DNA of 64,000 nucleotides from Planctomycetota bacterium (GTDB taxonomy: Bacteria; Planctomycetota; GCA-002687715; CAIWVZ01). Location: the NCBI GenBank assembly GCA_044222185.1, contig JBGANV010000002.1, forward strand, positions 416,001-480,000, read 5' to 3'. The first letter of the stretch is position 1. Each line of letters starts with the position of its first letter. The notes below the pieces were generated by a model. That model had not been told where the DNA came from, ran no database searches, and saw nothing but the letters and a program-made list of their open reading frames with translations. A program made the translations under genes and the position numbers. Shown here piece after piece: positions 37,128 through 55,348 of the stretch.

Positions 37128-37368
37128 CGAGGATGAGCGGGCCGCCACCCCAGTCCGAACGACTCTGGCTTCTACTGGACGGAGACCCTGGGCGACGGAG
37201 CGCCGCTCGAACCGCAGCGCATCGAGGACGAGCGGCCGGATCGCTGGACGACCGCAGCGAAGCGGAGGCGTCCGGTCCGTCCGACGTCGGGACGCAGCCG
37301 GCACACGAGGATCAAGCGCCCGCGATTGCGTAAGCGCGCGACGACCGCGCCATCACCCCAGTCCGAAC
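37078..37368. repeat. Imperfect direct duplication at the junction of convergent genes
   Basis: 37078-37140 is repeated imperfectly at about 37174-37235; CACCCCAGTCCGAAC occurs at 37146 and 37354. Confidence 0.7.
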
Positions 37369-39410
37369 AACTTCTGCGTGTCGATGTGACGCACCCCGGC
37401 GCCGTTGGCGGTCGCCACCTCGACCATGTTCTCGGTTCCACCCGGCCCGTCACCGACGGCCCCGTTCCACAACGCGATGAGGACGACCGACGCCGCTGGG
37501 TCCGACAAACCATGGTGCAGGGTCCAGAGGTTGTTGCGATTCCAGATCGTGTACTGGGGTTTGTTCACGAGCCATGCGGGGAGGATCTTCGAGTCGCTGA
37601 GGATTCTCGGAGGTGAACAACGACAGATTGCGTCGAACCGTTCGACCCACCCGGGGCCCGAGTCGGCCACGGACTGCCGGATGTAGCTGTTGCGGTCGAG
37701 CGCGAGGAGAACCGTGGTCGGTATGCCGACCTCGCCGCAGACCTCGTGGAAGAGGATGTCGCCGCCGCTCGCTCCTCCCGAGAATCCGTGCACCGTCTGC
37801 CCTGCGGCTTTCGCCGTGCGCACGACCGCTTCGACCTGCTCCCGGATCGCGGAGCGGGCGACCCCCTCCATCGCGGCCGGGAATCTGGGCACCTTCCTTC
37901 CGGGTGCGTCGATGCGATGACCCGTGAAGACGATGTGGAGCTTGAGCTGTTGGGCGGCGGTGACCGGAATCGTTGCCGCGAGATCCACCGGTTCGGCACC
38001 GAGGCCTTTGAGTCCCGCGCGAGCCCGGTCAACCCGGACTCCGAGGTGAACGAAGATCGAGAGCTGGCGTGCGGCAGCAGACGGGTTGAAGCCCCGCGGC
38101 GCACTTTGGCCCGCCGGCGGTCTGGCGAGGTGCGCCGCGGCGGTGCGGTAGAGCGATCGCACGGACTCCGGCGTGGCGTCGCCGAAGGCTGCCGCCGCGT
38201 CGCCCCGGCTGAGCTCGATCCAGTCGTCGTTCGGATCCAGGGCGTGCGCGTGATCGAGCCCGACGGCGACGACGGCGGCGAGACGCTGGGCATCCTCGAG
38301 AATCTGCGTGGTTGCCGTCTGCGCAGCGTCGTCTCCGCCGTTGAGACTCGCCCAGAGGTCGGCCTGAGCGGCCGCAAGTCCCGCACGCAGTGAGAGCAGC
38401 GCCACGGCGTTGAGCGCCGCGAAGTAGTTGTTGAGGTTGGTCTTCGCACCCTCCGCGTAGGAATCGAGGGCTCGTTGCAGGCGGGCCGACTCGAGCGCGA
38501 GTCGCTGACGCTCGGGAAGCGTGGCGGCGGTTGCCCATTCGAGGATCCAGTCCGCCTTCTCGTTACTGCCCCGCAGCGCGAGGGTCTCGGATCGCTCCGC
38601 CGGTGTCAACGGCGACTGCAGCAGCCGCTCGAGGACGGCGTCCGATGCCGCGCGATCGCCTATCTTCTGGTCGATGGTCGCGAGCCGTTGAAGCGTCTCG
38701 ACGTCAGTCGGCCGGCGATCGCGAATCATCGTGTAGGTGCGCCGGGCATTGACGAGGTCGTTGATCTTGAACTGCGTTTCGGCCACGTGTCTCAGGCCGG
38801 GAATCGCCCAGCTCAGATCCGAAAGCTCGTCGGCAAACAGCGAGAGTCGAACCGTGTCGCGCGAGGTACGGGCATCCGCGACCTCGTCGAAAAAACTCGA
38901 ATCCGGGCGCACGTGGGCGGTTGGATCGAAGGACCCGAGCTCGGGCATCAGATCGTGAACCGGACTGTCCGTGCGTTCCGCCTGGACCGTCGCGAGGATC
39001 ACGTCCGCCAGATCGTCGACAGATCGGGCGGGTTCGACCGGCGAGTAGTCGAGGTAGCGGTCCGTGCGCAGGTCGAAAGGGACGTCGTCGCCCTTGCAGC
39101 GAATCAGAACCGTCGCGCGGTTGCGGAGCGCGTGGCGGATGCCCAGCTCGTAGTAGACGTTCGCGTTGTGGATCGACACGTCGGCGATGACGAGATCTGC
39201 GAGGAGCAGCTCCTGGAACATGTCACGCCGAATGCTGCCAGCTTGGAGGATCGGGATCGTCGTCGCGGCGAACACGCGCTGGGCCGACGCGCGCTCGAAC
39301 TTCCGAATCGCGGGCTGGATGAGCAGTGACTCGACCGCATCGAAGTCGACCTCGAGCTTCTGATCCGACGTCTTGCGGGATCCAAACGGGCGGACGATGA
39401 AGACGTGCAT
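37353..39410 (-). CDS. ASK1-like protein: NDT/TIR-like N-domain, TPR (MAP3K TRAF-binding-like) region and SLOG C-domain
   Basis: N-domain FIVRPFG...ADLVIADVSIHNANVYYELGIRHAL...PFDL; helical middle; C-domain FTGHRID, GGASGGD, RNN, ALWNG..GDGPGGT..MV. Confidence 0.75.
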   Translation of the reverse strand: MHVFIVRPFGSRKTSDQKLEVDFDAVESLLIQPAIRKFERASAQRVFAATTIPILQAGSIRRDMFQELLLADLVIADVSIHNANVYYELGIRHALRNRATVLIRCKGDDVPFDLRTDRYLDYSPVEPARSVDDLADVILATVQAERTDSPVHDLMPELGSFDPTAHVRPDSSFFDEVADARTSRDTVRLSLFADELSDLSWAIPGLRHVAETQFKINDLVNARRTYTMIRDRRPTDVETLQRLATIDQKIGDRAASDAVLERLLQSPLTPAERSETLALRGSNEKADWILEWATAATLPERQRLALESARLQRALDSYAEGAKTNLNNYFAALNAVALLSLRAGLAAAQADLWASLNGGDDAAQTATTQILEDAQRLAAVVAVGLDHAHALDPNDDWIELSRGDAAAAFGDATPESVRSLYRTAAAHLARPPAGQSAPRGFNPSAAARQLSIFVHLGVRVDRARAGLKGLGAEPVDLAATIPVTAAQQLKLHIVFTGHRIDAPGRKVPRFPAAMEGVARSAIREQVEAVVRTAKAAGQTVHGFSGGASGGDILFHEVCGEVGIPTTVLLALDRNSYIRQSVADSGPGWVERFDAICRCSPPRILSDSKILPAWLVNKPQYTIWNRNNLWTLHHGLSDPAASVVLIALWNGAVGDGPGGTENMVEVATANGAGVRHIDTQKLFGLG

Positions 39411-39411
39411 G

Positions 39412-40590
39412 TCAGGGCTTCCCGAGGAACGAACCGAAGTGGGCGGGGTCGACCTGGGCGGCGAGCCGTTGCCCCACGTGTCGGAGGTCGTCCATGTGCT
39501 CGGTCGAATCGAGCTTGGCAATCTTCTCGGGGTTGATGTCGGGTCGCGCACCGATCTCCTTCAGTCCGGCGTTCGAGAGTTCGACGTCGTAGCGAATGTA
39601 TGTGAACGCGCGGCCTTGGTCCTTCGAAAGAGGAAGGACGGCGCCGAAGTCATCGCGGATGACGAGGTCCCCGACTTCGCGGTCGAGAGGGCGCCCATAG
39701 GTGCAACGTCCGATCGTGCGGCAGGCGAGATCCTGGTCGAACGCCGCCTGGTTCATGAGAGCCAGAAGTGTGTTGAGTGCATCGGCAGCGACGTTGTGAT
39801 CGGGGTCGTCGCCCGGAGCTCCGATGTGGGGTGCGCAGCCGGTGCCGATCGAAACGACGAGGAGGTTCTTCTCTCCGCGCGGCCACTCGAGGCGGTACAT
39901 GGGCTCGGTCGCCATGCGGTACATGACGAAGGCCGGGTTGTTGTAGGCGGTCGTGCCGCCGTCGACGAACCGGAAGGTCTTTCTCGTATCCCGCGGATCC
40001 CAGCTCACCGCCTCAGGCGGGAAGTAGATCGGCGCCGCAGTGCTCGCGCGGACGATCTGCCAGAGCGGAACCTGGAGATTGCAATCGGGCCGGTCGGGCG
40101 CGTTGTACTTCGCGGACGGGTTCGTCGAGAGCAGCCACGCCGAGTCGGTGGAGTGATTGCGCGTCACCACGAGCATCAGGCATTGGAGGTCTTGCGGGTG
40201 CAGGGTCGTGCGGGGTCCGAACACCTCCTGCAACTTCTCCTGAAGTCCGTCCTTCTCGTAGAGGCTCTTCCACCGTTCGAACAGGCTCCGCTTCTGGAAC
40301 ACCGCCTTGCCGAACTCCGCATAGAAGTCGCGCATGGCGGTCACCGACATGCCTCGCGCGAAGCCCGCCGCGAGGATCGCCCCCGTGCTCGTTCCAGCGA
40401 TGTAATCGAAGAAGTCGCACAGGCGTGTCTGCGGACCCCAGTTGTCCTGGATCAGCTTCTCGATGCGCATGAGCACTTCGAGCGTGAGCACTCCGCGAAT
40501 GCCGCCGCCGTCGAGTGCGAGCATCCGCCGCGGGCGCGGCGTGCTGTAACGGTCGGCAAGATGACCCCAGAGCTTCCAGTCCGTCTTCAT
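39412..40590 (-). CDS. Patatin-like phospholipase
   Basis: LALDGGGIRG, FDYIAGTSTG, ASTAAPIYF, FVDGG..NNP, VSIGTG and YIRY. Confidence 0.93.
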   Translation of the reverse strand: MKTDWKLWGHLADRYSTPRPRRMLALDGGGIRGVLTLEVLMRIEKLIQDNWGPQTRLCDFFDYIAGTSTGAILAAGFARGMSVTAMRDFYAEFGKAVFQKRSLFERWKSLYEKDGLQEKLQEVFGPRTTLHPQDLQCLMLVVTRNHSTDSAWLLSTNPSAKYNAPDRPDCNLQVPLWQIVRASTAAPIYFPPEAVSWDPRDTRKTFRFVDGGTTAYNNPAFVMYRMATEPMYRLEWPRGEKNLLVVSIGTGCAPHIGAPGDDPDHNVAADALNTLLALMNQAAFDQDLACRTIGRCTYGRPLDREVGDLVIRDDFGAVLPLSKDQGRAFTYIRYDVELSNAGLKEIGARPDINPEKIAKLDSTEHMDDLRHVGQRLAAQVDPAHFGSFLGKP

Positions 40591-40721
40591 CGTCGTGACT
40601 CCCTCTTGTGCGCGCTCCGTGCATTCGTGGGAGAACCGGGTCGAAACCTGGAATGCTGCGGCGCGGCGAGGTCGTGATCCTACACGAGCACTGGGGGAGT
40701 CCGCGCCGGATCCCGCCCGCG

Positions 40722-41915
40722 TCACCGTCGCTCCGGCCCCATCGTCTCGACGGAGCCGGCGATCTCGGTCTCGGCTTTTTGCGGGCGCGAGCCGGCGCCG
40801 AGGCGGGGGCCCGAGATCCACGATGCGAGCGCGACGACGGCGAAGATCAGACTCATGATCCAGAAGCGGAGCACGACCTTCGTCTCGGCGACGCCCTGAT
40901 GCTGGAACCCGTGGTGCGCGGGAGCGCGGTAGAGGATCCGCTTGCCGATGCGAAGGATCCCGATCTGCTCCTGAATGAGGACGGAGAGCGCCTCGTAGAC
41001 GAAGATGGCGCCGACGATCAGGAACAGGAGCTCCTGTTTCGTGAGGACGGCCAGGGCCGCCAACGTCCCCCCGAGCGAAAGGGACCCGGTGTCACCCATG
41101 ATCACCTGGGCGGGGTAGCCGTTGAACCAGAGGAACCCGGTGGCAGCGCCGAGAAGCCCCGTGCAGTAGATCGCCAACTCCTCCATCCACGCATGGGCGG
41201 CCATGTCGCCGACGCCGCCGAGCATGTTCTTGCCGAGGATGATCCCGATGGCGCCGTAGACCGCGACCCCGAACGCCGCCGGCACGATGGCGAGGCCGTC
41301 GAGTCCATCGGCGAAGTTCACCGCGTTGCTGATCGCCATGAAGGCGACGAGGATCAGAATGCCGTACCCGAGGAACCCCAGGTCGGGGTGGAAGCCGAGG
41401 ATGGGCGTCGCCAGCGGGATGAAGAGCTTCGTGCGCTCGTCAGGCGAGAACGGCGACGTGCCGACGTTCAGGATCATCAACGCGAAGAAGAGACCGAACA
41501 GTGCCTGCGAGACCAGCTTGAACCGCCGGCCCAAGCCTCCGTCGGAGTGCTTGCGTCGCATCTTCAGGATGTCGTCCATGGCGCCGAGGCCGGCGAAGAA
41601 GCTCGTCGAGAGGAGGAGCAGGGGCGTGGGCCGGCTCCACAGATCGCACCAGAACAACGCGGAAAGCACGATGCCGAGAACGATGATGATGCCGCCCATG
41701 GTCGGCGTGCCGCTCTTGCTCGACGCGTATGCGTCCACGTACTCGCGAGGTCGATCGCGCAATCCGCGACGATAGAGCCCGGCGATCACGCGCGGTCCCA
41801 AGAGCCACACCACGAGGAACGCGGTGATGAACGCGGCGATGCAGCGAATCGAGGTGAGGGGCGCGATCTTCGCGTGCTGGCTCTCCATCACCAGCTTGTA
41901 GAGCATGTAGATCAC
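40722..41915 (-). CDS. mraY: Phospho-N-acetylmuramoyl-pentapeptide transferase (divergent, orphan)
   Basis: KSGTPTMGG, DDILK, NAVNFADGLDGL, GFLWFN.YPA.V.MGDTGS, APAHH and E.KVV.RFW. Confidence 0.9.
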   Translation of the reverse strand: MIYMLYKLVMESQHAKIAPLTSIRCIAAFITAFLVVWLLGPRVIAGLYRRGLRDRPREYVDAYASSKSGTPTMGGIIIVLGIVLSALFWCDLWSRPTPLLLLSTSFFAGLGAMDDILKMRRKHSDGGLGRRFKLVSQALFGLFFALMILNVGTSPFSPDERTKLFIPLATPILGFHPDLGFLGYGILILVAFMAISNAVNFADGLDGLAIVPAAFGVAVYGAIGIILGKNMLGGVGDMAAHAWMEELAIYCTGLLGAATGFLWFNGYPAQVIMGDTGSLSLGGTLAALAVLTKQELLFLIVGAIFVYEALSVLIQEQIGILRIGKRILYRAPAHHGFQHQGVAETKVVLRFWIMSLIFAVVALASWISGPRLGAGSRPQKAETEIAGSVETMGPERR

Positions 41916-44900
41916 GCCGGCTCTCCCATGGTCGCGGAGACCTGATCGAACTTGCGCCGCACGCGGAGGAGGTCTTCCTTGAGCTTGAACCGCGGCGTGA
42001 ACGAGTCGCAGGTGACGAGCACGTCATCCACCAGTTCGAGCAAGGCGCGTGCATCGAGGACGACGCCGCGCTTGTGGAGTTCTTCGTAGGCGCAGACGAC
42101 GGCGTCGCGCACTTGCCAGTTCGGGTGATAGTGCAGCTTCTTCAACACGGGCAGGATCGCGGGCTCTCGCGCCAGCAGGCCGATGGCGCGGACGGCATTC
42201 AGCGCCGTCTCGAAGCAGCGCGACTCGGTGAGGCCGATCAGCGCCGCGAGCGCCTTGTGCCGCGTCGCGTCGCTGAGGAACGGCGCGAGGTTGCCGAGGA
42301 CACGCGCGGCGCCCGCGCGCACCTCGAAGTAGGGATCGTTGAGCGCGGTCACGAGGGCGTTTGCCGTCACTTCGTCGGGGTCTCCGAGCTGCCCCAAGGC
42401 GACGACCGCGTTGCGTCTCACGAATCCCGGCTCGCGGAAATCCGCTCCAAGGAAGCGGAGGTAGAACGGCATCGCTTCGCGATTGGTCACGAGCTGCGCG
42501 AGCTTGGGTCGGGTCACGCGGAGCTGGAGCAGCCCCGCGAGCTTGCAGCCGATGTTGCGCTCCTGCCAGCGCGGCCGACTGAGCAGCTGCGTCACGCGCT
42601 TGTTCAGGTTGAACGTGAGCGCGAGCTGGGGGTTCTTCTCGACCCACTTCAGCAACTCACCTGCCGAGAGCCACTGGGGAACGACGGGCCGCACCTCGCG
42701 TGGCCGAGTCGGCTCGTGATCGTGGCTCTTGCGGTTGAAGCGAGCCAGCAGCTCCTCGATCTGCTCCGACTCCATGAGGAACGCCGTCCCCGCGAACGCG
42801 AACCCACCGAAGAAGCACGGCGTGAGAAGCTGGAGCGCGCGGTTGACGATCGTGCCGACGCCACCGGGGAACGATTCGAAGTGCCGTACCGCCGCCAGGC
42901 TCATGGCTGCGGCGATCGCCGCCGCGCAGGTCGCGAACGACGTCTGGAAGATCGTCGGCCAGAGATCCTTGAACCGGAATGCCGCGTCCTCTTCCCGCAA
43001 GTCGCGGTTGAGCAGCCACAGCCGGACGACCGCCGCGATGCTGAACGTCACGGTCGACGAAAGCGCGATGCCCGCGAACCCGAACGGAGTCTTCACGAGT
43101 GCCAGCGAGAGCGACACGTTGATGACGAGCGCCACGAGATTCGTCAGCGTCCCCGCGCCCATCTGATTGCGCGCCGCGAAGAACCGACCGGAGAGTGCCA
43201 CGAGGCCCCACCCCGGCAGTCCGATGGAGTAGGCCTGCAAGGCGGTCATCACGTAGGGCGCGCGCTCGGCCGTGAGCTTCCCGTATTGGAGCAACCCGCG
43301 AACGATCGGCTCGGCGAGGATCACCATGGCGACGGCCATGGGGACGAGGAGGAAGATCGTCCAGTTGATGCCGTTCACGATCATGCGCCGCGTCCACGCC
43401 TTGTCGCGGACCGCCATGCCTTCGCTGAGTTCCTTCAGCACGACCGTGTTGATCGTCTGCGCCACGAGGGCGAACGGAAGCAGGAACAACTGCCTGCCGA
43501 AGTCGAGCGCGCTGATCATCCCGTCCGACAGCGCGGACGCGATGCTGACGTCCACGATCTCGCCGGCCTTCGAGATCGTGGTGTCCGCCAGGATGTTCGG
43601 CGTGACGCGCCCCACGCGGCGGATGCCCGGCGTGCGCATGTCGAGACCGCGGGGGAATCGCAGTCCGTGGCCCTTGCGGATCTCCGGTCCGAACAGCGGC
43701 GGGAGCTGCACGAGGATCTGCCCCACGCCGCCTGCGAGCACGCCCCACCCGAGCGCCTGGATGCCGAAGCGGTCGTAGAACGACACGCCGGCGATCATGC
43801 CCACGCTGAACATGATCGACGCGTTCGCCGGCAGGGCGAACCGATTGAACGCCTTCAGCACGGCGGCGATGACGGCCGCGGCGGAGATGAGGATCAGGTA
43901 CGGGAACATGATCCGCGTGAGCTTGACCGCGTCGTCGACCATGCCCTTCGCGCGGAACCCCGGAGCGATGGAGTCGATCCACAGCGGCGTCGTGAGGATC
44001 GCGCCGACGGTGACGACGGCGCTCCCGAGGAGGGTGAGCTTCATCACGGTCGAGAAGAGGCGGTTCGCCTCGTCCCTGCGACCCGAGCGGAAGAGCTGAA
44101 CGAACGTCGGCAGGAACGCGCTGTCGACGGCCACCTCGGCGAACACGGCGCGGAAGAAGTTGCTGACCCGCAACCCGAACGTCATGAGGTCGGTCGCCTG
44201 ACCGAGGCCGAGCGTGCCGCCGGAGATCGCCACGCGGGCGAATCCCATCATGCGCGACGTCATGGTGCCGAACGCCGTCGCGAAGAGCTTCTTGCCCACG
44301 GCCATGGGGCGATCTTCGCGTTCGACCTCACGGTCCAGCACGCGGAACGTGAAGCGGTTCGGACCGATGGAGACGACGTCCTCCGGCGAAAGACGCGTGC
44401 GTTGCGCCACGGGCTTGCCGTTGATCGAGACCTGTCCGCGGCGCGGCACGATCCAGAACTCGGCGACGCCGCCGACGCGCGCCTCCTGCAGGAACGCCCG
44501 TTCGCCGTCGCCCCGATCGAGCAGGCGCACGTCCGCGAGCGCGCCCGCCGAGATGACGTTGTTGTTGAACCGCAGCTCGTGCGTGATTCCCGCTTCGTCG
44601 AGCAGCAATCCGACCTTCGCCGTGACGATGCGCTTGTAGATCACGGGCTCGCCGCCCGCGAGCGACTCGAGGACGTCGGCGTTGCGGCCCAAGGCCTCGG
44701 GGATGACCATGCGATGAGCCTGGCGGCCCATCTGGAGCAGGAGCTCCTCGTCGTCGAGGAGGTCGACGATGCGACGCCCCAGCTGATCGCCGTAGACGCG
44801 CGTGACGACACGGCCCTCCTCGTCCGCCGGCTCTTCGTAGAAGATCTCGGCGGCGCCCGCGTCGGCGAAGGCGAGCGCGTTCTCGAGCTGATGCTGCCCG

Positions 44901-45820
44901 GGCGCATCCGACTTCGGGATCAGGATCGAGGGCTTCCCGATGGCGCCCAGCTCCATGATCGTTCCCGCACCCGACCGCGCGACGACGAGGTCGGCGAGCG
45001 CGTAGACGTCCTCGATGTCCTCGATGAACCGCTTGCAGACGTAGCGGCCCGGGATCTCGGGCGCGAGGCCCATCTGCTTCAACCGTTCGCAGGTGTCGTC
45101 GAAGGCGTTGTATTCGGGGCTGTTGAAGAGCCCCGTCGAGTGGATGATCGCGACCTTCTCGTGGCGGAGCAGCGTCTTCAGCGCTTCCACGATGCCGCGG
45201 TTGATCGAGCGCGAGCCCATGCTTCCGCCGACGACGAACACGCACTTGGATTCGGGTGCGATGCCGTATTTCAACCGCGCCGCGTCGCGGGACGCCGTGC
45301 CGATGCGGCTGCGAACGGGATACCCGGTGTGGATCGCCTTCGGAGGCGGCAGTTCGCGGAGCGTGCGCTCGAACGTGATGCCCACGCGGGTGGCGAAACC
45401 TGCCAGCAGACGGTTGGCCGCCCCCGGTCGGGCGTTCTGTTCGTGGACGAAGATCCGCCGCTTGAGGATCGCCGCCGCGAGCACGGGCGGCACGGAAACG
45501 TACCCACCCGTTGCGACCACGAGATTGGGGCGGAACCGGACGATGATCCACAGCGATTGGAGGATTCCCGCGAGCACTCGCACGAGCATCGTCGCGAATC
45601 GGATCGGTCGCCGCGGCGACACGTGCTGCGCGGTGAGCACGCCCTTGAACGCGATGCCGTGTTGCTCGACGCGTTTCTCGTATCCGCCGGCGGAACCGAC
45701 GTAGAGAATGCGAGCCGACGGATCACGGCGCCGGATCTCGCCGATCATGGCGAGATTCGGTGTGACGTGTCCGCCCGTGCCACCGCCCGTGAAGAGGTAG
45801 CGTCTCCCCGTTTGGGTCAC
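41912..45820 (-). CDS. MurG-FHA-like-MurJ-HEAT fusion protein
   Basis: MurG (~45820-44660): GGGTGGH, TGGYVS, HEQN, GGSMG, RSGAGT, HQ..NA. FHA-like (~44610-44340). MurJ (~44300-42770): SRMMGFAR, R..FAE...SAFLP, RIMFPY, GIALS. HEAT-like tail: VRRNAVVALG, DPYFEVRAGAA..LG, NWQVR. One uninterrupted frame. Confidence 0.9.
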   Translation of the reverse strand: MTQTGRRYLFTGGGTGGHVTPNLAMIGEIRRRDPSARILYVGSAGGYEKRVEQHGIAFKGVLTAQHVSPRRPIRFATMLVRVLAGILQSLWIIVRFRPNLVVATGGYVSVPPVLAAAILKRRIFVHEQNARPGAANRLLAGFATRVGITFERTLRELPPPKAIHTGYPVRSRIGTASRDAARLKYGIAPESKCVFVVGGSMGSRSINRGIVEALKTLLRHEKVAIIHSTGLFNSPEYNAFDDTCERLKQMGLAPEIPGRYVCKRFIEDIEDVYALADLVVARSGAGTIMELGAIGKPSILIPKSDAPGQHQLENALAFADAGAAEIFYEEPADEEGRVVTRVYGDQLGRRIVDLLDDEELLLQMGRQAHRMVIPEALGRNADVLESLAGGEPVIYKRIVTAKVGLLLDEAGITHELRFNNNVISAGALADVRLLDRGDGERAFLQEARVGGVAEFWIVPRRGQVSINGKPVAQRTRLSPEDVVSIGPNRFTFRVLDREVEREDRPMAVGKKLFATAFGTMTSRMMGFARVAISGGTLGLGQATDLMTFGLRVSNFFRAVFAEVAVDSAFLPTFVQLFRSGRRDEANRLFSTVMKLTLLGSAVVTVGAILTTPLWIDSIAPGFRAKGMVDDAVKLTRIMFPYLILISAAAVIAAVLKAFNRFALPANASIMFSVGMIAGVSFYDRFGIQALGWGVLAGGVGQILVQLPPLFGPEIRKGHGLRFPRGLDMRTPGIRRVGRVTPNILADTTISKAGEIVDVSIASALSDGMISALDFGRQLFLLPFALVAQTINTVVLKELSEGMAVRDKAWTRRMIVNGINWTIFLLVPMAVAMVILAEPIVRGLLQYGKLTAERAPYVMTALQAYSIGLPGWGLVALSGRFFAARNQMGAGTLTNLVALVINVSLSLALVKTPFGFAGIALSSTVTFSIAAVVRLWLLNRDLREEDAAFRFKDLWPTIFQTSFATCAAAIAAAMSLAAVRHFESFPGGVGTIVNRALQLLTPCFFGGFAFAGTAFLMESEQIEELLARFNRKSHDHEPTRPREVRPVVPQWLSAGELLKWVEKNPQLALTFNLNKRVTQLLSRPRWQERNIGCKLAGLLQLRVTRPKLAQLVTNREAMPFYLRFLGADFREPGFVRRNAVVALGQLGDPDEVTANALVTALNDPYFEVRAGAARVLGNLAPFLSDATRHKALAALIGLTESRCFETALNAVRAIGLLAREPAILPVLKKLHYHPNWQVRDAVVCAYEELHKRGVVLDARALLELVDDVLVTCDSFTPRFKLKEDLLRVRRKFDQVSATMGEPA

Positions 45821-46088
45821 GAACCTGTTGACCTTTCGTTCCCGCGCGGACACCGCCAGGGCCGCGCTCCACTTCACCGTTCCCCACCGCCAGGGAAGGC
45901 GAATTCGAGAGCCGAAACGCACGCGAACGGCCGGGCAGAGAGTAGACGCCGCACCCCTGGGAAACAACGCGCCTGCAGGTGGGAAATCACGGCCCTTGCC
46001 TCATTCGTTCGATCGGGTGTAATCGCCACGATCCAGGCCCAACTGATCTGTCGCATCAGAGTCCCGGCTTGCGACGGAGTCCGCTCCC

Positions 46089-48752
46089 ATGAGATGGAAG
46101 TTCCTGACGCCAGCGTTCCTGTCGTTGTTCGTGGCACCGCTCCAGGCGCAGATCCCACCGTCCGTCCAGCTGCAGGCGGCGCAGGCGTGGTCGGGAACCG
46201 CGGGAAGCGCGAACGCCGGGTGGTCCATCGCGTCCGGCGGTGGCGTGATCCTGACGGGATCGCCGGGTGGCAGTCCGCCGGGACCCGGCGTCAACTCCTG
46301 GACAGGCGGGCCGCCGCCCCTCGGCCCGACGGGCGCGGGGACCGTGCAAGTGCGCGCGAGCGTCGGCGGTCAGGTGCTCAACACGTTGCTCGGTGAAGCC
46401 GGGGGCGATCGCTTCGGCTTCGTCGTGTGCAACATCGGGGACGTGGATGGGGATACGGCCCCAGACTTCGCCATCGGAGCTCCGTTCGGCGGCGGAGGTA
46501 CGGGCCGCGTCTATGTCTATGCGAATGCCGACCTTCAGGGGCCTTTCACGCCTTCGCCCTTGTTCGTGTTGTCGGGGTTCCTTCCCAACGATCGCTTCGG
46601 GGTGTCGGTGTGTGGGATCGGTGACATCACCGGCGACGGCCTCGACGAGTTCGTCGTTGGCGCGCCCAAGGCTGGGCTCTTCCACGTGGGCCAGGCCTAC
46701 GTCTTCAGTCCCCAACCCGGAGGAGCTCAGCTTCTCGCCCCGGTGATGAATGGCGAGGCGGTCCAACCCGTGTTCGGCGGAAGTCTGGCGGCGGTGGGGG
46801 ATCTGGACGGTGACGGTCGCTCGGAGATCGCCATCGGCGCATCGGGATCGGGCGACACGCCACAGGCGACGACGGGAGCGGGTCGCGTGTACATCTTCCG
46901 GGGGTCGAACCGGACGTTGCTCGGCCAGATCAACGGACCCGTCACCGGAGGCCTGTTCGGGTACAGCATCTCTCGCCTCGGCGACGTCAGCGTCCCCGCT
47001 GACGGAATCCCCGACTTCGCGGTTGGAGCGCCCCGTTCGGGATCCCTGACCGCGGACGATTCGGGGCGGGTGTTCATCTACTCGGGCGCGACACGTGCCC
47101 TGATGAGAACCTTCAGTCAGGCGACACCGGGCGACTTGCTCGGCGCCGCGGTCGTCGGGACGGGGAACGCCGACGCGGACGCGCAGCTCGAGGTGGCCAT
47201 CGGGTCGCCGGGTTCGGGCCTCGACGGACGCCCCGGTCGCGTGCTCCTCGTTGGCGCCAGCGATGGCGTCGTGAAATCCACCGTGTCCGGCGAACGGCCG
47301 AACGACCGGATGGGAATGAGCATCGGCGTCCTCGACGACATCAATTTCGACGGTCGCCCGGAGCTGCTCGCGGGAAGCCCGAACCACGACATGGCGGAGA
47401 ACGTGGCCAATCGCATGGACGATGGCCGCGGGATGGTCTTCGTCTTGCCTCGAACCCTCTACGTCTCCGCCACCGCGGGGCCTGGCGGGAACGGCTCCTA
47501 CGCGACGCCTTACGCCTCGATCGGGATGGCGATTGCGTCGGCGCGCCACGGCGACACGATCTTCGTCGGGCCGGGAACCTACGCCGAATCGCTGTTTCTC
47601 AACGTCAACGTCCGCCTCGTGGGGGCGGGCACGACCCCGACGATCATCGATCCGGGCCCCAACGCACTGTTAGGCGCCCTCTCCGTCGGCATGGGCACCG
47701 ACGACACGTGCCTCCTGGAAGGGTTGACCTTCCGACAGGTCCTCGCCACGGCCGGCGGGGCGACGATCCGGAACTGCCGCATCGGGCGGCTGAACGTCGT
47801 GCGCGGTTACCTGGGATCGACCTACGTCGACCGCGTCGACATCGTTCGGCTCGATCATTGCACGATCGACACGTTGCACGTCGAGGGCCCGATCCTTCCA
47901 ACGTCGCTGGGAGACCCCTATCCGCTCCAGGTCCAGATGGACCACTGCAGCATGCGCCCCATGGGCACGGGTCTCGCGCCCATCTTCACGCGTCTCGCGG
48001 AACTGACCCTGACCAATTCCATCATCTGGGACCCGACGTCGTCGGTCGACATCCTCGCGCCGACGGGGAGCCCGGTGACGACGCCCGGCCCCGAGGGGTC
48101 CCTCGTCCGGTCGCGGTATTGCGTGATGGCCTACAACACCGTCGGGTTCGATCCGACCAACGTCGTGGGCGATCCGAAGTTCGCGAACGCGTCGGCGGGG
48201 GATCTTCGACTGCGCATCGACTCGCCCGCCATCGACGCCGGCGATCCCGCGGCCCCGTTGGACCCCGACGGATCGCGAAGCGACGTCGGCGCGTCGTACG
48301 CTCCTCCCGACCACCTGCCGGGGTCGGCGGACCGCGTCTACCTTGCGACGGCGCTGAACGCGTTGCCGCTCGGCGCGGCCGGGTCGGACATCCATCCCGC
48401 CCAGCCCGGCAACGCGGCGACCTTCTCGGTCTGGACGACGAACACGGCCCTCCTCGGAAGTCCCATGCTCGTCCTGGCGCAGGGATACCCGGCTCTCAAT
48501 TCGATTCCGCCGACGCCGGGGCTTCCCGCGTTCATCCGACTGAATCCCTACGTGCTGCCGTACTTCGTCCTCTTCGGCACGGCGTCGCCGATCGGGCTTC
48601 CGGTCCTGTCGGGGACGCCGACGACCTTCGCGCTGGGCATCCCGCCCGGGCTCGCGGGGATCACCATTCGGGTCCAGGCCTTCGCCGTGTCACCGCTGGC
48701 GCTGGCAGCCGGCATCGCCGCATCTTCGGCCCACGAGTTCGTCGTCAACTGA
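46089..48752 (+). CDS. Secreted FG-GAP (integrin-alpha propeller) + beta-helix protein with conserved C-terminal domain
   Basis: Signal peptide; repeated FG...GD.DGDG..D..IGAP; YV....G.GS...P..SI...GD.I.V.PGTY; SPAIDAG...DPDG...D.GA; terminal domain. Confidence 0.88.
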   Translation: MRWKFLTPAFLSLFVAPLQAQIPPSVQLQAAQAWSGTAGSANAGWSIASGGGVILTGSPGGSPPGPGVNSWTGGPPPLGPTGAGTVQVRASVGGQVLNTLLGEAGGDRFGFVVCNIGDVDGDTAPDFAIGAPFGGGGTGRVYVYANADLQGPFTPSPLFVLSGFLPNDRFGVSVCGIGDITGDGLDEFVVGAPKAGLFHVGQAYVFSPQPGGAQLLAPVMNGEAVQPVFGGSLAAVGDLDGDGRSEIAIGASGSGDTPQATTGAGRVYIFRGSNRTLLGQINGPVTGGLFGYSISRLGDVSVPADGIPDFAVGAPRSGSLTADDSGRVFIYSGATRALMRTFSQATPGDLLGAAVVGTGNADADAQLEVAIGSPGSGLDGRPGRVLLVGASDGVVKSTVSGERPNDRMGMSIGVLDDINFDGRPELLAGSPNHDMAENVANRMDDGRGMVFVLPRTLYVSATAGPGGNGSYATPYASIGMAIASARHGDTIFVGPGTYAESLFLNVNVRLVGAGTTPTIIDPGPNALLGALSVGMGTDDTCLLEGLTFRQVLATAGGATIRNCRIGRLNVVRGYLGSTYVDRVDIVRLDHCTIDTLHVEGPILPTSLGDPYPLQVQMDHCSMRPMGTGLAPIFTRLAELTLTNSIIWDPTSSVDILAPTGSPVTTPGPEGSLVRSRYCVMAYNTVGFDPTNVVGDPKFANASAGDLRLRIDSPAIDAGDPAAPLDPDGSRSDVGASYAPPDHLPGSADRVYLATALNALPLGAAGSDIHPAQPGNAATFSVWTTNTALLGSPMLVLAQGYPALNSIPPTPGLPAFIRLNPYVLPYFVLFGTASPIGLPVLSGTPTTFALGIPPGLAGITIRVQAFAVSPLALAAGIAASSAHEFVVN

Positions 48753-52591: not shown

Positions 52592-55348
52592 ATGGAATCG
52601 CAAGACGACCGCACGCTCCCCATGGGGTCCGACTCGGCGAAGGCCGAGGCGCGGCCAGCGCCGGGCGCGGTCACGTCCGAGGTCTTCGGCTCGGGGCGGT
52701 ACCGCGCCATCCGCGTCCTCGGGCGGGGTGCGCAGGGGACCGTCTACCTCGCCGAGGACACCGTCCTCAATCGACGCATCGCGTTGAAGGTCATCTCGCT
52801 CGGCGGAGAGATGTCCGCGGACGGCATCGCGCGCTTTCGCCGCGAGGCCGACCTCGCGGGCCGGTTGAGCCATCCCGGGATCTGCACCGTGCTGGACGTC
52901 GGTCTCGAGGCGAGACTTGCCTACATCGCCATGCAGTACGTCGAGGGCGAGACGCTCCAGCAACGTCTCGCCGTCGCGCGCTCGGACGCGACCACGCGGG
53001 AGGAACCGGGGTTGCACATCTCGAAGTTCGGGCCCGACGTTGCGGGCGACGATCCGAAGCGAGCTACCGCGTCCCGTCCCCGCGTCGACGTCGACGTCCA
53101 GAGGACGGTCCGGTTGATCGAGGACGTCGCGCGCGCGCTGCACGCCGCACACGAGGTCGGGATCGTTCACAGGGACATCAAGCCCGCCAACATCATGGTG
53201 GGGGCGGACGACAGGGCGGTCGTGCTGGATTTCGGTCTCGCGCGCGACGTCGTGGATGGCGAGACGATCACCCAGCCAGGGTTCCAGCTCGGAACGCCTT
53301 ATTACATGTCGCCGGAGCAACTCATGCTGGGACACGTGCGCCTCGACCGGCGCACCGACGTCTATTCCCTCGGCGTCACGCTGTACGAGTGTCTGACGCT
53401 CGACAGGCCTTTCGACGCGCCGACGCGTGAAGGGCTGTGGCAGGCGATCCAGCATCAGGACGCGACGGACGCGCGGCGGCGGAATCGCTCGATCTCGTCG
53501 GATCTGTGGAAGGTCGTCCAGGTCGCGATCGAGAAGGATCGCGATCGCCGATATCAGACCGCTCTGCAATTCGCCGACGACCTCCGTCGCGTGCGCCAGG
53601 GTGAGCCGATCCTCGCCCGCCCCGTGGGCCCGTTCGGCCGTCTCGTGCGGTGGACGCGCCGCCGGCCGGCGCTCGCCGCCGCGTGGCTGGGTGTCCTCAC
53701 ATCTCTCAGCGCGGGCCTCGCGACGTCGCTGACGCTTCTCGCGCAACGAACGCGGGAGACCAAGCGCGCGAACGAGATGACGGCCGTGGCGCTGTCCCGC
53801 CTCAGCGATTCCGAGAGCCTGGCCGACCTCGGCCTTGCGCGCCAACTCGTCATCGAGGAGCCGCGACTGTGGCCCGCGCACCCACGCCTCGTGCCCGCGA
53901 TCGACGATTGGATCCACCGCGCGCGCTCGCTCGTGGAGAGGCGGGATCGCTATCGAGCAGACTTGGCCCGGATCCGCGAGTCGGCCATCCCACTGGACCC
54001 GATCCGGCGGCAAGCCGAGCGGGAACGAGCCCAGCTGTTGCTCGCGACCAGCGCGGTGCGATCGAAGGAGGCCGAGACGATCGCGTCCGAGCGCGCCGCG
54101 ATCGCATCCGGGGCGCCGACGATCGACGTTCCGATCGGCAATCGCGACGCCGCGCTGCTCCAGCTCGACGCGTCGATCGAGGACTGTCGGATTGCCAGCG
54201 AACGCCTGCGCGCCGCCGCGGACGAGCCGTCCGAGTGGGCGTTCGCCGATCCGTCCGTCGCGTGGCGGCACGAAGTGCTCACGACGTTGGTCCGCGAGAT
54301 GTCCTCGATCGCGGACCCAGGTGACGGGGCCGGCCTTTTGCGGCGCGTGGAGGCGCGGCGCCGGATCGCCGCGGAGCTGCGACACGTCACGCTCGACGGG
54401 CCGGCCGAGGATTGGCGGCGCGCGATCGCGATGATCGGCGATCCGCGAGTCCTTCCGGTCTATGGCGGGCTCGAGATCACGCCGCAGCTCGGCCTCATCC
54501 CCGTCGGCGTGGACCCCGGGAGTCGTCTGTACGAGTTCGCGCACGTCGCGAGCGGCGCGCCGGCCGTGCGCGGACCCGACGGGCGACTCGTCGTTTCCCC
54601 CGACTCGGGGATCGTCCTGGTGCTCGTCCCCGGCGGCGAATTCAACATCGGCAGCCGGCTCCCCGCCGGCGAGTTCGTCGAAGGCGATCCGAACGTCGAT
54701 CCCGAACGGCAACCGTTCGACCTGCCGGTCCAGGGCGTCACCCTTCCAGCGTTCTTCGTTTCCAAGTGGGAGATGACACAAGCCCAATGGAAGCGACTGA
54801 CGGGAAGGAACCCGTCGTTGAATCGTGGGCTCGCCAACGGCCGCCTCTTCACGCTGACGTGTCCCGTCGACAACGTCAGCGGCGCGGAGGCGCTGGAGGT
54901 CGCGCGCATGGTCGATCTGGACCTTCCGTCGGAGGCCGAGTGGGAATTCGCCACGCGCGCGGGCACGCGGACGGTCTGGTACACGGGCGATCGCGTCGAA
55001 CTCGTCCAGGCGGCCGCCAACCTCATGGGCTCGACGGAGGGTGGGCCCGACCGGTTCGTGCAGATTGCGCCGATCGGGAGCTTCGCGCCGAACGCGTTCG
55101 GCCTGTACGACGTTTACGGGAACGTCCGCGAATGGTGCCGCGACATTCGCGATGCCGACACGAACGGAAATCGAGACGGCGAGGGGCGCTCGGCTCGCGC
55201 CGTCGGGTTTGGAGTGATGCGCGGAGGTGGATTCAGTGACTCGCCGGCGTCGGCGCGATCGGCCGCCCGGTACTGGCACCCCTTCGACTCCGCGTATTGC
55301 CCGGCGGGTGTGCGGCCGGTCCGCCGGCTCCGCCCCGATTCCGAGTAG
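52592..55348 (+). CDS. Ser/Thr protein kinase fused to an FGE-sulfatase (SUMF1-like) domain
   Basis: LGRGAQGTVY, ALK, HRDIKPAN, DFG, GTPYYMSPEQ, one TM-like segment, LPSEAEWE..RAG, NAFGLYD..GNV.EW and RGG. Confidence 0.92.
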   Translation: MESQDDRTLPMGSDSAKAEARPAPGAVTSEVFGSGRYRAIRVLGRGAQGTVYLAEDTVLNRRIALKVISLGGEMSADGIARFRREADLAGRLSHPGICTVLDVGLEARLAYIAMQYVEGETLQQRLAVARSDATTREEPGLHISKFGPDVAGDDPKRATASRPRVDVDVQRTVRLIEDVARALHAAHEVGIVHRDIKPANIMVGADDRAVVLDFGLARDVVDGETITQPGFQLGTPYYMSPEQLMLGHVRLDRRTDVYSLGVTLYECLTLDRPFDAPTREGLWQAIQHQDATDARRRNRSISSDLWKVVQVAIEKDRDRRYQTALQFADDLRRVRQGEPILARPVGPFGRLVRWTRRRPALAAAWLGVLTSLSAGLATSLTLLAQRTRETKRANEMTAVALSRLSDSESLADLGLARQLVIEEPRLWPAHPRLVPAIDDWIHRARSLVERRDRYRADLARIRESAIPLDPIRRQAERERAQLLLATSAVRSKEAETIASERAAIASGAPTIDVPIGNRDAALLQLDASIEDCRIASERLRAAADEPSEWAFADPSVAWRHEVLTTLVREMSSIADPGDGAGLLRRVEARRRIAAELRHVTLDGPAEDWRRAIAMIGDPRVLPVYGGLEITPQLGLIPVGVDPGSRLYEFAHVASGAPAVRGPDGRLVVSPDSGIVLVLVPGGEFNIGSRLPAGEFVEGDPNVDPERQPFDLPVQGVTLPAFFVSKWEMTQAQWKRLTGRNPSLNRGLANGRLFTLTCPVDNVSGAEALEVARMVDLDLPSEAEWEFATRAGTRTVWYTGDRVELVQAAANLMGSTEGGPDRFVQIAPIGSFAPNAFGLYDVYGNVREWCRDIRDADTNGNRDGEGRSARAVGFGVMRGGGFSDSPASARSAARYWHPFDSAYCPAGVRPVRRLRPDSE

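What the first reader, a model, noticed from the sequence alone, without database searches (positions are those of the whole stretch)
41912..45820. Single-polypeptide MurG-FHA-MurJ-HEAT fusion coupled to mraY: a two-gene lipid II synthesis-and-flipping module
Seen: one open frame contains complete MurG motifs, an ~90-aa FHA-like domain, a full multi-TM MurJ/MviN flippase and C-terminal HEAT-like repeats. Its stop overlaps the mraY start (GTGA). Established: MraY makes lipid I, MurG makes lipid II and MurJ flips it. These are normally separate proteins, with murG and mraY in the dcw cluster and murJ elsewhere. Inference: the membrane steps are physically channelled, and the added interaction domains recruit or regulate partners. 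It could be a specialised second peptidoglycan or lipid-linked glycan pathway. I do not recall this architecture being described.
Basis: partly seen in the sequence, partly recalled or inferred. Interest (0 to 1): 0.92.

Follow-up and report, generated by a model that had tools for sequence, protein, structure and literature searches.

The report
Fused lipid II synthase-flippase gene
One gene of an uncultured planctomycete joins the enzyme that finishes the cell-wall building block lipid II to the protein that flips it across the membrane, a real and conserved natural fusion that could help show how these two steps are coupled.

Summary
Window 41912-45820(-) is one uninterrupted frame of about 1302 aa: MurG (GT28), a diverged FHA-fold domain, a complete 14-helix MurJ and a C-terminal HEAT solenoid. 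Its TGA overlaps the GTG of mraY (GTGA). It is not an assembly artefact. Contigs from an independent study bridge all three junctions without indels. The same frame is full-length in 16 of 22 other genomes of the same planctomycete order, and mraY follows it in 14 of 16 loci with flank. It is the genome's only murJ, only mraY and only credible murG. The dcw remnant elsewhere (rsmH-PBP-murE-murF-ftsW) lacks mraY and murG. So this is the housekeeping lipid II module, not a second pathway. Two points are new. The MurG and HEAT parts belong to a MurG-HEAT family found in other phyla. The FHA-MurJ part matches two-domain FHA-MurJ proteins of other planctomycete families. The fusion therefore looks like FHA-MurJ inserted into the linker of a MurG-HEAT protein. 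A second arrangement, MurJ-MurG-HEAT, also exists. The FHA domain lacks the phosphothreonine-binding residues. I found no paper describing a MurG-MurJ fusion. Channelling in cis is inferred, not shown.

The parts
41912..45820 (-). Whole fusion gene, about 1302 aa, stop included. An alternative GTG start at 45877 gives 1321 aa.
   Evidence: Open frame. Full-length relatives. Independent contigs across the junctions.
44699..45808 (-). MurG domain (GT28), residues about 5-374.
   Evidence: Pfam PF03033 and PF04101. TIGR01133 207 bits. PDB MurG 3s2u 1.8e-29 and 1f0k 1.1e-27. GGGTGGH, E290 and H310-Q311-N314 are invariant in 48 of 48 sequences.
44312..44638 (-). Diverged FHA-fold domain, residues about 395-503.
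   Evidence: hhalign against the FHA domains of FHA-MurJ proteins, 99.2%. PDB FHA profile hits. AF2 model pLDDT 83. Foldseek top hits are the FhaA FHA domain, 3po8/3poa/2lc1/3oun. The pThr-binding residues are not conserved.
42743..44293 (-). MurJ domain, 14 transmembrane helices, residues about 510-1026.
   Evidence: TIGR01695 268 bits, over cut-off. End-to-end alignment with solved MurJ 7waw/9ukv. R523, R529 and R557 are invariant in 48 of 48; D544 in 46 of 48.
41924..42664 (-). C-terminal HEAT-repeat solenoid, residues about 1053-1299, homologous to the C-terminal domain of MurG-HEAT proteins.
   Evidence: HEAT_2 1.2e-21. AF2 pLDDT 90, all-helical. Foldseek hits are alphaRep/HEAT/ARM repeats. 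BLASTP to P0063 6e-37 and to P0079 4e-31.
41912..41915 (-). GTGA: the stop of the fusion gene overlaps the GTG start of mraY.
   Evidence: Sequence read directly.
40722..41915 (-). mraY, 397 aa, co-oriented and immediately downstream.
   Evidence: TIGR00445 241 bits, over cut-off 192. Only mraY in the genome. Downstream of the fusion in 14 of 16 related loci with flank.

Best explanation
This is the housekeeping membrane module of peptidoglycan precursor synthesis in an uncultured order of Planctomycetota, reduced to two translationally coupled genes.

Proposed sequence of steps:
1. MraY makes lipid I.
2. The N-terminal MurG domain of the fusion protein adds GlcNAc to give lipid II at the cytoplasmic face.
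3. The MurJ domain of the same polypeptide flips lipid II.

Both ends of MurJ face the cytoplasm. The MurG, FHA-fold and HEAT domains therefore all sit on the cytoplasmic side, tethered to the flippase at fixed 1:1 stoichiometry.

Proposed origin: an FHA-MurJ cassette, which exists as a two-domain protein in other planctomycete families, came to lie between the MurG and HEAT parts of a MurG-HEAT protein, a family found in other phyla.

The FHA domain has lost its phosphothreonine-binding residues and probably serves as a structural connector or docking module. The HEAT solenoid is a MurG-associated protein-binding module whose partner is unknown.

Shown here: the architecture, its conservation, its single-copy status, the catalytic and transport motifs, and the domain homologies. 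Inferred: both activities, hand-off in cis, and the order of evolutionary events.
For: Real and conserved:
- One open frame.
- Junctions bridged by contigs from another study, with no indels.
- Full length in one frame in 16 of 22 other genomes of the order; 4 more are pieces cut by contig ends; 2 have no match.
- 51 of the 89 hits in the 90%-identity cluster search carry MurG, MurJ and HEAT in this order.

Housekeeping role:
- Only murJ, only mraY, and the best murG by 150 bits.
- The genome holds murB, murC, murE, murF, ftsW, rodA-type SEDS and two PBPs.
- The dcw remnant runs rsmH-PBP-murE-murF-ftsW with no mraY or murG.

Active-looking domains:
- MurG G-loops and the E290 and H310-Q311-N314 motifs are invariant in 48 of 48.
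- MurJ equivalents of E. coli R18, R24 and R52 are present in 48 of 48, and of D39 in 46 of 48.
- MurJ aligns end to end with solved MurJ.

Operon: GTGA overlap with a Shine-Dalgarno-like GGGAGAG. mraY is adjacent in 14 of 16 loci.

Origin:
- The HEAT part is 34-38% identical to the C-terminal domain of MurG-HEAT proteins.
- Of the 145 new proteins among the 150 best HEAT-profile hits, 47 are MurG-HEAT.
- In a MurG-domain tree, a branch with SH-aLRT 99 groups all fusions with MurG-HEAT, apart from 12 plain planctomycete MurGs.
- The mid domain matches the FHA of nine FHA-MurJ proteins.
Against: - No experiment: neither activity nor any hand-off is shown.
- TIGR01133 scores 207-211 bits, below its equivalog cut-off of 250.25.
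- The column aligned with E. coli MurJ R270 is Arg in only 11 of 48 and Lys in 4 of 48.
- In two related loci of one genus (L031, L033), mraY is not found in the 1.5-2.2 kb downstream of the fusion gene.
- The MurG tree is unrooted and its backbone is unresolved. 'Insertion into MurG-HEAT' versus 'MurG-HEAT by loss of FHA-MurJ' is therefore not decided.
- The specific HEAT domain was not found in sampled planctomycetes outside the order: 1 weak hit in 378 genomes. No MurG-HEAT parent within the phylum was seen.
Confidence: 0.75

Rival explanations
1. The locus is a specialised second lipid-linked glycan or peptidoglycan pathway that runs beside a canonical one.
For: The locus lies outside the dcw cluster and next to unrelated genes: an FG-GAP protein, a patatin-like lipase and a TPR-S protein. 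The MurG score is below the equivalog cut-off.
Against: The genome, 93.8% complete, holds no second murJ and no second mraY over threshold. Other GT28-like matches score 60 bits or less. The dcw remnant lacks exactly mraY and murG.
Confidence: 0.05
2. The MurJ part is retained mainly as a membrane anchor or scaffold for MurG and no longer flips lipid II. Another protein, such as a SEDS protein, would do the flipping.
For: The R270-equivalent column is not conserved: Arg in 11 of 48 and Lys in 4 of 48. Some MurG-HEAT proteins carry a simple N-terminal hydrophobic helix instead (P0079, P0077). This shows that anchoring MurG in the membrane is a recurring theme.
Against: The R18, R24 and R52 equivalents are invariant and the D39 equivalent is nearly so. 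All 14 helices align with solved MurJ. TIGR01695 is over its cut-off. This is the only MurJ in the genome. The whole length is conserved down to 30% identity.
Confidence: 0.1
3. The MurG-HEAT clade, the fusion included, is a GT28 glycosyltransferase that acts on a different lipid-linked acceptor or uses a different sugar than canonical MurG.
For: The clade is separated from plain planctomycete MurGs by a branch with SH-aLRT 99. It scores under the TIGR01133 cut-off.
Against: The best solved relatives are MurG enzymes (3s2u, 1f0k, 7d1i). The donor- and acceptor-side motifs are invariant. It is fused to MurJ and coupled to MraY. There is no other MurG candidate in a genome that has Mur ligases, SEDS proteins and PBPs.
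Confidence: 0.08
4. The long frame is an assembly or frameshift artefact that joins separate genes.
For: None was found. One related record (P0045) is a MurJ piece with a low-complexity tail, as a frameshift would give.
Against: Contigs from an independent study cover the junctions with no indels. The same frame stands in 16 other genomes of the order and in 16 named public MAG records.
Confidence: 0.01

Closest known systems
Natural Mur chimeras (MurE-MurF, MurC-Ddl, MurC-MurB, MurG-MurC, MurD-FtsW, MraY-MurG), surveyed in PMC10214165 (passages read)
   Same: These are also single polypeptides that join two steps of peptidoglycan precursor synthesis. The same arguments about stoichiometry and complex formation apply.
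   Different: None of the listed chimeras includes MurJ. MurJ occurs once in that text, in a figure legend. That survey left out proteins from unidentified species, which is where all members seen here come from. Here a synthase is joined to the flippase, with two extra non-catalytic domains.
Mycobacterial MurJ (MviN, Rv3910) with its cytoplasmic pseudokinase domain and the FHA protein FhaA (PMC6180346, passages read; PDB 3oun)
   Same: A MurJ extended by cytoplasmic regulatory domains and associated with an FHA domain. The FhaA FHA domain is the top structural match of the mid domain here.
   Different: In mycobacteria the FHA domain is a separate protein that reads a phosphothreonine on MurJ's pseudokinase domain. 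Here the FHA fold is in cis, N-terminal to MurJ. It lacks the Arg, Ser and His phospho-binding residues, and there is no pseudokinase domain.
Canonical separate MurG (PDB 1f0k, 3s2u) and MurJ (PDB 6cc4, 7wag, 7waw, 5t77)
   Same: Both domains align over their whole lengths with these proteins and keep the key motifs.
   Different: Here they are one polypeptide. The MurG belongs to the HEAT-associated clade, and the R270-equivalent column of MurJ is not conserved.
MurG-HEAT proteins of 600-860 aa (for example P0063 and P0057 from Gemmatimonadetes MAGs, P0077 from Thermodesulforhabdaceae, L050 from Candidatus Hatepunaea); no name or paper found
   Same: Same MurG clade and a homologous C-terminal HEAT domain.
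   Different: They lack the FHA and MurJ parts. Some have an N-terminal hydrophobic helix.
FHA-MurJ two-domain proteins of other planctomycete families (L020-L028)
   Same: An FHA domain directly N-terminal to MurJ, homologous to the mid domain here.
   Different: Their FHA passes Pfam FHA in 9 of 9. It keeps the GR pair in 8 of 9 and the NG pair in 9 of 9. No MurG or MraY was found within the flanks held, and tblastn with the whole fusion protein matched only its residues 408-1046 there, so no HEAT part either.

Membership tests
MurG (GT28, undecaprenyl-PP-MurNAc-pentapeptide GlcNAc transferase) | Two-domain GT-B architecture: Glyco_transf_28 plus Glyco_tran_28_C. | tested here: met
   PF03033 1.4e-30 and PF04101 3.6e-25. 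Aligns with solved MurG 3s2u over residues 9-383.
MurG (GT28, undecaprenyl-PP-MurNAc-pentapeptide GlcNAc transferase) | Glycine-rich loops and the donor-binding Glu and Gln/Asn motif. The assignment of these motifs to function is recalled, not taken from a call. | tested here: met
   G12-G13-G14-T15, G17 and H18 are present in 48 of 48, and G16 in 45 of 48. G199, S200, G202, E290, H310, Q311 and N314 are present in 48 of 48.
MurG (GT28, undecaprenyl-PP-MurNAc-pentapeptide GlcNAc transferase) | Score over the curated equivalog cut-off of TIGR01133. | tested here: not met
   207-211 bits against a cut-off of 250.25. In the tool's control set, 5 of the 14 genomes with a match are also under the cut-off.
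MurG (GT28, undecaprenyl-PP-MurNAc-pentapeptide GlcNAc transferase) | Converts lipid I to lipid II. | not testable with these tools
   Needs an enzyme assay or complementation.
MurJ (MviN, MOP superfamily lipid II flippase) | Score over the curated equivalog cut-off, and full-length 14-helix alignment with solved MurJ. | tested here: met
   TIGR01695 268.4 bits against 235.55. Residues 510-1015 align with positions 5-498 of the 511-residue chain 7waw.
MurJ (MviN, MOP superfamily lipid II flippase) | Central-cavity charged residues equivalent to E. coli R18, R24, D39 and R52. Their essentiality is recalled. | tested here: met
   R523, R529 and R557 are present in 48 of 48; D544 in 46 of 48.
MurJ (MviN, MOP superfamily lipid II flippase) | Arg equivalent to E. 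coli R270. Its essentiality is recalled. | tested here: not met
   The aligned column (R776 in the window) is Arg in 11 of 48 and Lys in 4 of 48. Met (16) and Leu (14) make up most of the rest. The alignment there may be off by a few columns.
FHA domain | Passes the Pfam FHA model. | tested here: not met
   No PF00498 hit. The best hit is Yop-YscD_cpl, E 0.027, 15 bits against a cut-off of 33.
FHA domain | FHA beta-sandwich fold and homology to bona fide FHA domains. | tested here: met
   hhalign 99.2% against FHA domains that pass Pfam in 9 of 9. PDB profile hits are Slr1951 at 7.7e-5 and EmbR at 1.1e-3. Foldseek finds 55 matches at E<=0.001; nearly all of those listed are FHA domains, and the top TM-score is 0.75-0.76.
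FHA domain | Phosphothreonine-binding residues: Arg of the GR pair, Ser and His of SxxH, Asn of NG. Their roles are recalled. | tested here: not met
   The Arg column is Arg in 5 of 48. The His column is Arg in 36 of 48. The Asn column is Asn in 26 of 48. The window has Ala, Arg and Asn at these three columns.
HEAT-repeat solenoid | HEAT repeat profile and an all-helical solenoid fold. | tested here: met
   HEAT_2 77 bits with 4 stretches. The model has pLDDT 90 and 15 helices. Foldseek matches alphaRep, HEAT and armadillo repeat proteins.
MraY (neighbouring gene) | Score over the curated equivalog cut-off. | tested here: met
   TIGR00445 241.3 bits against 192.05, and the MraY_sig1 signature.

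The most novel reading that the evidence does not exclude
MurG, MurJ and the HEAT module form a physical lipid II factory that evolution has hard-wired at least twice: as MurG-FHA-MurJ-HEAT in this order and as MurJ-MurG-HEAT in another lineage. The HEAT domain would be a so far undescribed, cross-phylum partner domain of MurG. It would dock the synthase to the flippase and/or to MraY, so that lipid II is handed directly from the MurG active site into the inward-open cavity of MurJ.
Probability: 0.3. Interest if true: 0.8.

Novelty: new variant of a known kind. Interest (0 to 1): 0.62.

Why it matters
How lipid II passes from MurG to its flippase, and whether these proteins work as a complex, is still argued from indirect interaction data. 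A natural protein in which the two are covalently joined, is the only copy in the genome and is translationally coupled to MraY offers three things:
- Genetic evidence that MurJ acts directly after MurG.
- A ready-made object for cryo-EM and for coupled synthesis and flipping assays.
- A case of a membrane transporter apparently inserted into the linker of a soluble two-domain protein.

The MurG-HEAT family and the FHA-MurJ family found along the way point to accessory domains of lipid II synthesis. I found no description of them in print (searches). The finding also bears on surveys of planctomycete cell-wall genes. Ortholog searches with coverage thresholds can score such fused genes as absent; PMC12283558 reports this for its own murCB and ftsZ cases (passages read).

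Tried and rejected
- Complex prediction, MurG domain (1-385) with HEAT domain (1055-1302), both cut from alignment A1: no verdict, score 0.00 in two runs, controls not run. This says nothing for or against binding.
- RNA evidence: no RNA holder is listed for the stretch, so expression and co-transcription could not be looked at.
- Short 'joints' (sides of 20-22 letters, in X5 and X1) are below the tool's own 30-letter guidance. I set them aside as chance or other organisms.
- Plain planctomycete murG places with long open frames (658-884 aa) looked like possible MurG-HEAT parents inside the phylum. All 12 that I fetched (L051-L062) have no HEAT match. These are spurious long frames of a GC-rich genome.
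- The search for related loci with the HEAT alignment used patterns too specific to the fusion clade. It returned 16 Planctomycetota MAG loci and one Candidatus Hatepunaea MurG-HEAT locus, so it did not map MurG-HEAT across phyla.
- The listing of cluster members gave almost no organism names. The taxon of the roughly 1260-aa subgroup (P0044, P0046-P0053) and of the MurJ-MurG-HEAT proteins (P0134, P0054) remains unknown.
- Independent origin of the two four-domain subgroups: not supported and not excluded. The AU test does not reject one clade, p 0.458.
- The MurJ review PMC10108830 is not held. PMC12419801 mentions MurJ only in its reference list.
Supplementary files of papers were not asked for. 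The supplement of PMC10214165 (SI Fig. S1, chimera lists) could hold a MurG-MurJ entry that I could not see.
Full report
**Observation**

The window is GC-rich (about 0.63-0.71). On the minus strand, 41912..45967 is one frame without a stop.

Pfam finds, in order, Glyco_transf_28, Glyco_tran_28_C, MurJ and HEAT_2. NCBIfam gives TIGR01695 murJ at 268 bits, over its cut-off of 235.55. It gives TIGR01133 murG at 207 bits, under its cut-off of 250.25.

The next gene downstream is mraY (TIGR00445, 241 bits, over cut-off). Read directly, the fusion gene ends GCG TGA and the mraY GTG overlaps it as GTGA. GGGAGAG lies 5 nt upstream of that GTG.

The start of the fusion gene is GTG 45820 (1302 aa, my numbering) or GTG 45877 (1321 aa, as stored in the protein collection). 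Third-position GC of 0.89-0.91 marks both genes as real coding frames.

**Not an artefact**

Public runs from sludge and bioreactor metagenomes hold this stretch. Contigs of two runs from a study other than the possible source cover the three domain borders, and no insertion or deletion is listed:
- X2 record 12, 42145-43526
- X2 record 14, 44295-44755
- X3 record 21, 43867-44723

I searched 400 genomes of the phylum with the whole protein. Among the 22 other genomes of the window's own order:
- 16 have a single full-length frame (query about 4-1290, no stops, 43-59% identity).
- 4 have pieces cut by contig ends.
- 2 have no match (86% and 90% complete).

Outside the order, the listed matches are separate murG-type (query about 5-390) and murJ-type (about 500-1030) places. 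Not all rows were listed.

In the 90%-identity protein collection, 89 proteins matched. By local phmmer with the four window domains:
- 40 are MurG-FHA-MurJ-HEAT.
- 11 are MurG-MurJ-HEAT.
- 26 are MurG-HEAT.
- 1 is MurJ-MurG-HEAT.
- 9 have MurG with other partners or alone.
- 1 is a MurJ piece and 1 a MurJ-HEAT piece.

Where a source names the long proteins, it calls them MurJ, or MurJ/MurG, of Planctomycetota MAGs.

**The middle domain**

Pfam does not call FHA. Scanned alone, the segment gives only Yop-YscD_cpl at E 0.027.

Nine genomes of three other planctomycete families have 640-710-aa proteins that match the query from about residue 408-415 to about 920-1046. Their N-terminal domains pass Pfam FHA in 9 of 9.

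Supporting evidence for an FHA fold:
- A profile of 17 fusion mid domains (A2) aligns with a profile of these nine FHA domains (A3) at 99.2% probability, E 2.5e-19.
- The A2 profile alone reaches PDB FHA domains: Slr1951 at 7.7e-5, EmbR at 1.1e-3, Ki-67 at 3e-3.
- The AlphaFold2 model is all-beta with pLDDT above 90 over about 95 residues.
- Its best Foldseek matches are the M. tuberculosis FhaA FHA domain (3po8, 3poa, 2lc1). They include 3oun, the entry of FhaA with the intracellular domain of the mycobacterial MurJ.

The phosphothreonine-reading positions are not kept in the 48-sequence alignment:
- The Arg of GR is Arg in 5 of 48.
- The His column is Arg in 36 of 48.
- The Asn of NG is Asn in 26 of 48.

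**MurG and MurJ parts**

In the alignment of 48 full-length proteins (30-65% identity, A1), the MurG G-loop GGGTGGH is invariant at six of its seven positions (G16 45 of 48). G199, S200 and G202 of the GGSxG loop, E290 and H310-Q311-N314 are invariant.

The MurJ part aligns from its first to its last helix with solved MurJ structures (7waw, 9ukv, 6cc4, 7wag). By that alignment:
- E. coli R18, R24 and R52 correspond to R523, R529 and R557, each present in 48 of 48.
- D39 corresponds to D544, present in 46 of 48.
- The R270 column is Arg in only 11 of 48.

It is established knowledge of MurJ structures (recalled) that both ends of the 14-helix protein are cytoplasmic. If so, MurG, FHA and HEAT are all on the cytoplasmic side, which is the topology a working fusion needs.

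**The C-terminal domain and the origin of the fusion**

The last 250 or so residues fold as a confident helical solenoid (pLDDT 90) that resembles HEAT, alphaRep and armadillo repeats.

It is not a generic repeat. It is 34-38% identical (E 4e-31 to 6e-37) to the C-terminal domain of 720-750-aa proteins whose N-terminal part is MurG, from Gemmatimonadetes and other MAGs. Shared motifs run to the very C-terminus.

A profile of the domain searched against 1.84 billion representatives found 129 proteins at E<=1e-30. Of the 145 new proteins among the best 150:
- 47 are MurG-HEAT.
- 2 are MurG-MurJ-HEAT.
- 1 is MurJ-MurG-HEAT (P0134).
- 4 are MurJ-HEAT pieces.
- 75 match HEAT only (giant repeat proteins and short proteins or fragments).
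- 16 matched none of my four single-sequence queries.

I built a MurG-domain tree from 69 of 135 rows: every third fusion, every second MurG-HEAT, and all others (IQ-TREE quick, LG+G4). A branch with SH-aLRT 99 separates two sets. One holds 32 MurG-HEAT rows, 17 fusions and P0134. The other holds the 12 plain planctomycete MurGs, 6 MurG fusions to other Mur enzymes, and P0090.

The specific HEAT domain was found (E<=1e-12) in 20 of the 22 order genomes, always inside the fusion frame. Among 378 other planctomycete genomes there was one weak hit.

Taken together:
- MurG and HEAT share a history as MurG-HEAT.
- FHA and MurJ share a history as FHA-MurJ.
- The four-domain protein looks like the second inserted into the linker of the first.

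The direction of change (insertion versus loss) is inferred from the wider spread of MurG-HEAT, not shown. The roughly 1260-aa subgroup (P0044, P0046-P0053; 30-33% identity) has the FHA domain at the same place. One origin of the four-domain form is not rejected (AU p 0.458).

**Role in the genome**

The assembly is 7.08 Mb in 16 contigs and 93.8% complete. It has one murJ match and one mraY over threshold. Beside this gene it has only weak GT28-like matches of 60 bits or less. FtsZ was not found, as expected for Planctomycetota (passages).

Mur ligase, SEDS and transpeptidase matches are present. On contig 7 the genes run rsmH, class B PBP, murE, murF, ftsW and, a little further on, murB. The three genes missing from that run are mraY, murD and murG. 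Contig 4 holds a second murE-like gene and murC. murA, murD and ddl were not searched by name.

mraY follows the fusion gene in 14 of the 16 related loci with enough flank. The two exceptions belong to one genus. This is the housekeeping route, moved out of the dcw cluster and condensed, not a second pathway.

**Comparison with what is known**

- A survey of natural Mur chimeras lists MurE-MurF, MurC-Ddl, MurC-MurB, MurG-MurC, MurD-FtsW and MraY-MurG. It names no MurJ fusion, and it excluded proteins of unidentified species (PMC10214165, passages).
- In Planctopirus limnophila, murG and murJ are separate genes (PMC12283558, table passage).
- In mycobacteria, MurJ carries a cytoplasmic pseudokinase domain that, once phosphorylated, binds the FHA protein FhaA (PMC6180346, passages). 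Here an FHA fold is fused in cis, but without the phospho-binding residues.
- Searches for 'MurG-MurJ', 'MurJ-MurG' and 'murG murJ fusion' found 0 papers.
- 'MurG' + 'HEAT repeat' + 'peptidoglycan' found 0 papers.
- 'MurJ' + 'fused' + 'Planctomycetota' + 'lipid II' found 1 paper, which is irrelevant.
- 'MurG' + 'MurJ' + 'fusion' + 'Planctomycetes' found 4 papers. The two whose passages I read describe no such fusion; of the other two I saw only the search listing.

The library lacks most subscription journals, and supplements were closed.

**Verdict**

The architecture is real, conserved across one uncultured planctomycete order, and is that order's sole lipid II synthase and flippase. It is a new variant among Mur chimeras rather than a new kind of system. 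Its interest lies in the coupling of MurG to MurJ, its apparent origin by domain insertion, and the two accessory-domain families it exposes. Channelling and the role of the HEAT domain remain hypotheses. The one complex prediction I ran gave no verdict.

Noticed in passing
L020-L028 (for example L026:5525-7513): Other planctomycete families (f80, f90, f92) encode 640-710-aa proteins with a bona fide N-terminal FHA domain fused to MurJ. Pfam FHA is met in 9 of 9. No murG or mraY was found in the flanks held.
   Followed up: partly
P0057-P0081, P0103-P0228 (many), L050:308-2599: A family of MurG proteins has a specific C-terminal HEAT domain (600-860 aa). It occurs in Gemmatimonadetes, Thermodesulforhabdaceae, Candidatus Hatepunaea and unnamed metagenome bins. 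Some members have an N-terminal hydrophobic helix. I found no paper on it.
   Followed up: partly
P0134 (1219 aa), P0054 (1235 aa): A second fusion order, MurJ-MurG-HEAT without FHA. Its MurG groups with MurG-HEAT proteins P0079-P0081 (SH-aLRT 99). The taxon is unknown.
   Followed up: partly
window 39412-40821(-) and 37353-39551(-): Directly downstream of mraY lie two genes. One is a patatin-like phospholipase with sub-threshold likeness to CBASS and anti-phage lipases (121 and 84 bits). The other is a 732-aa protein with a TPR-S sensor repeat. They may be a defence-type pair.
   Followed up: no
window 52592-55348(+): A 918-aa protein with a Ser/Thr protein kinase domain fused to an FGE-sulfatase domain, 6.6 kb upstream of the fusion gene. 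No link to the degenerate FHA domain was tested.
   Followed up: no
L063 (G000 contig 7, 130500-141000) and L064 (contig 4, 135000-141500): The dcw remnant runs rsmH-PBP-murE-murF-ftsW, then murB, without mraY, murD or murG. A second murE-like gene (608 aa with an N-terminal extension) sits beside murC on contig 4. The ligase match between them was not identified.
   Followed up: partly
L031 and L033 (genomes G317 and G122, one genus): In this genus mraY is not found in the 1.5-2.2 kb downstream of the fusion gene, unlike the other 14 loci.
   Followed up: no
window 46089-48752(+): A divergently oriented 887-aa FG-GAP repeat protein lies upstream of the fusion gene. Weakly similar repeat proteins lie near the fusion gene in L019, L029 and L030.
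   Followed up: no
P0045 (738 aa): A MurJ-only record, 67% identical to the window's MurJ part, whose second half is Arg/Pro-rich low-complexity sequence. It looks like a frameshifted copy of a fusion gene in another assembly.
   Followed up: no
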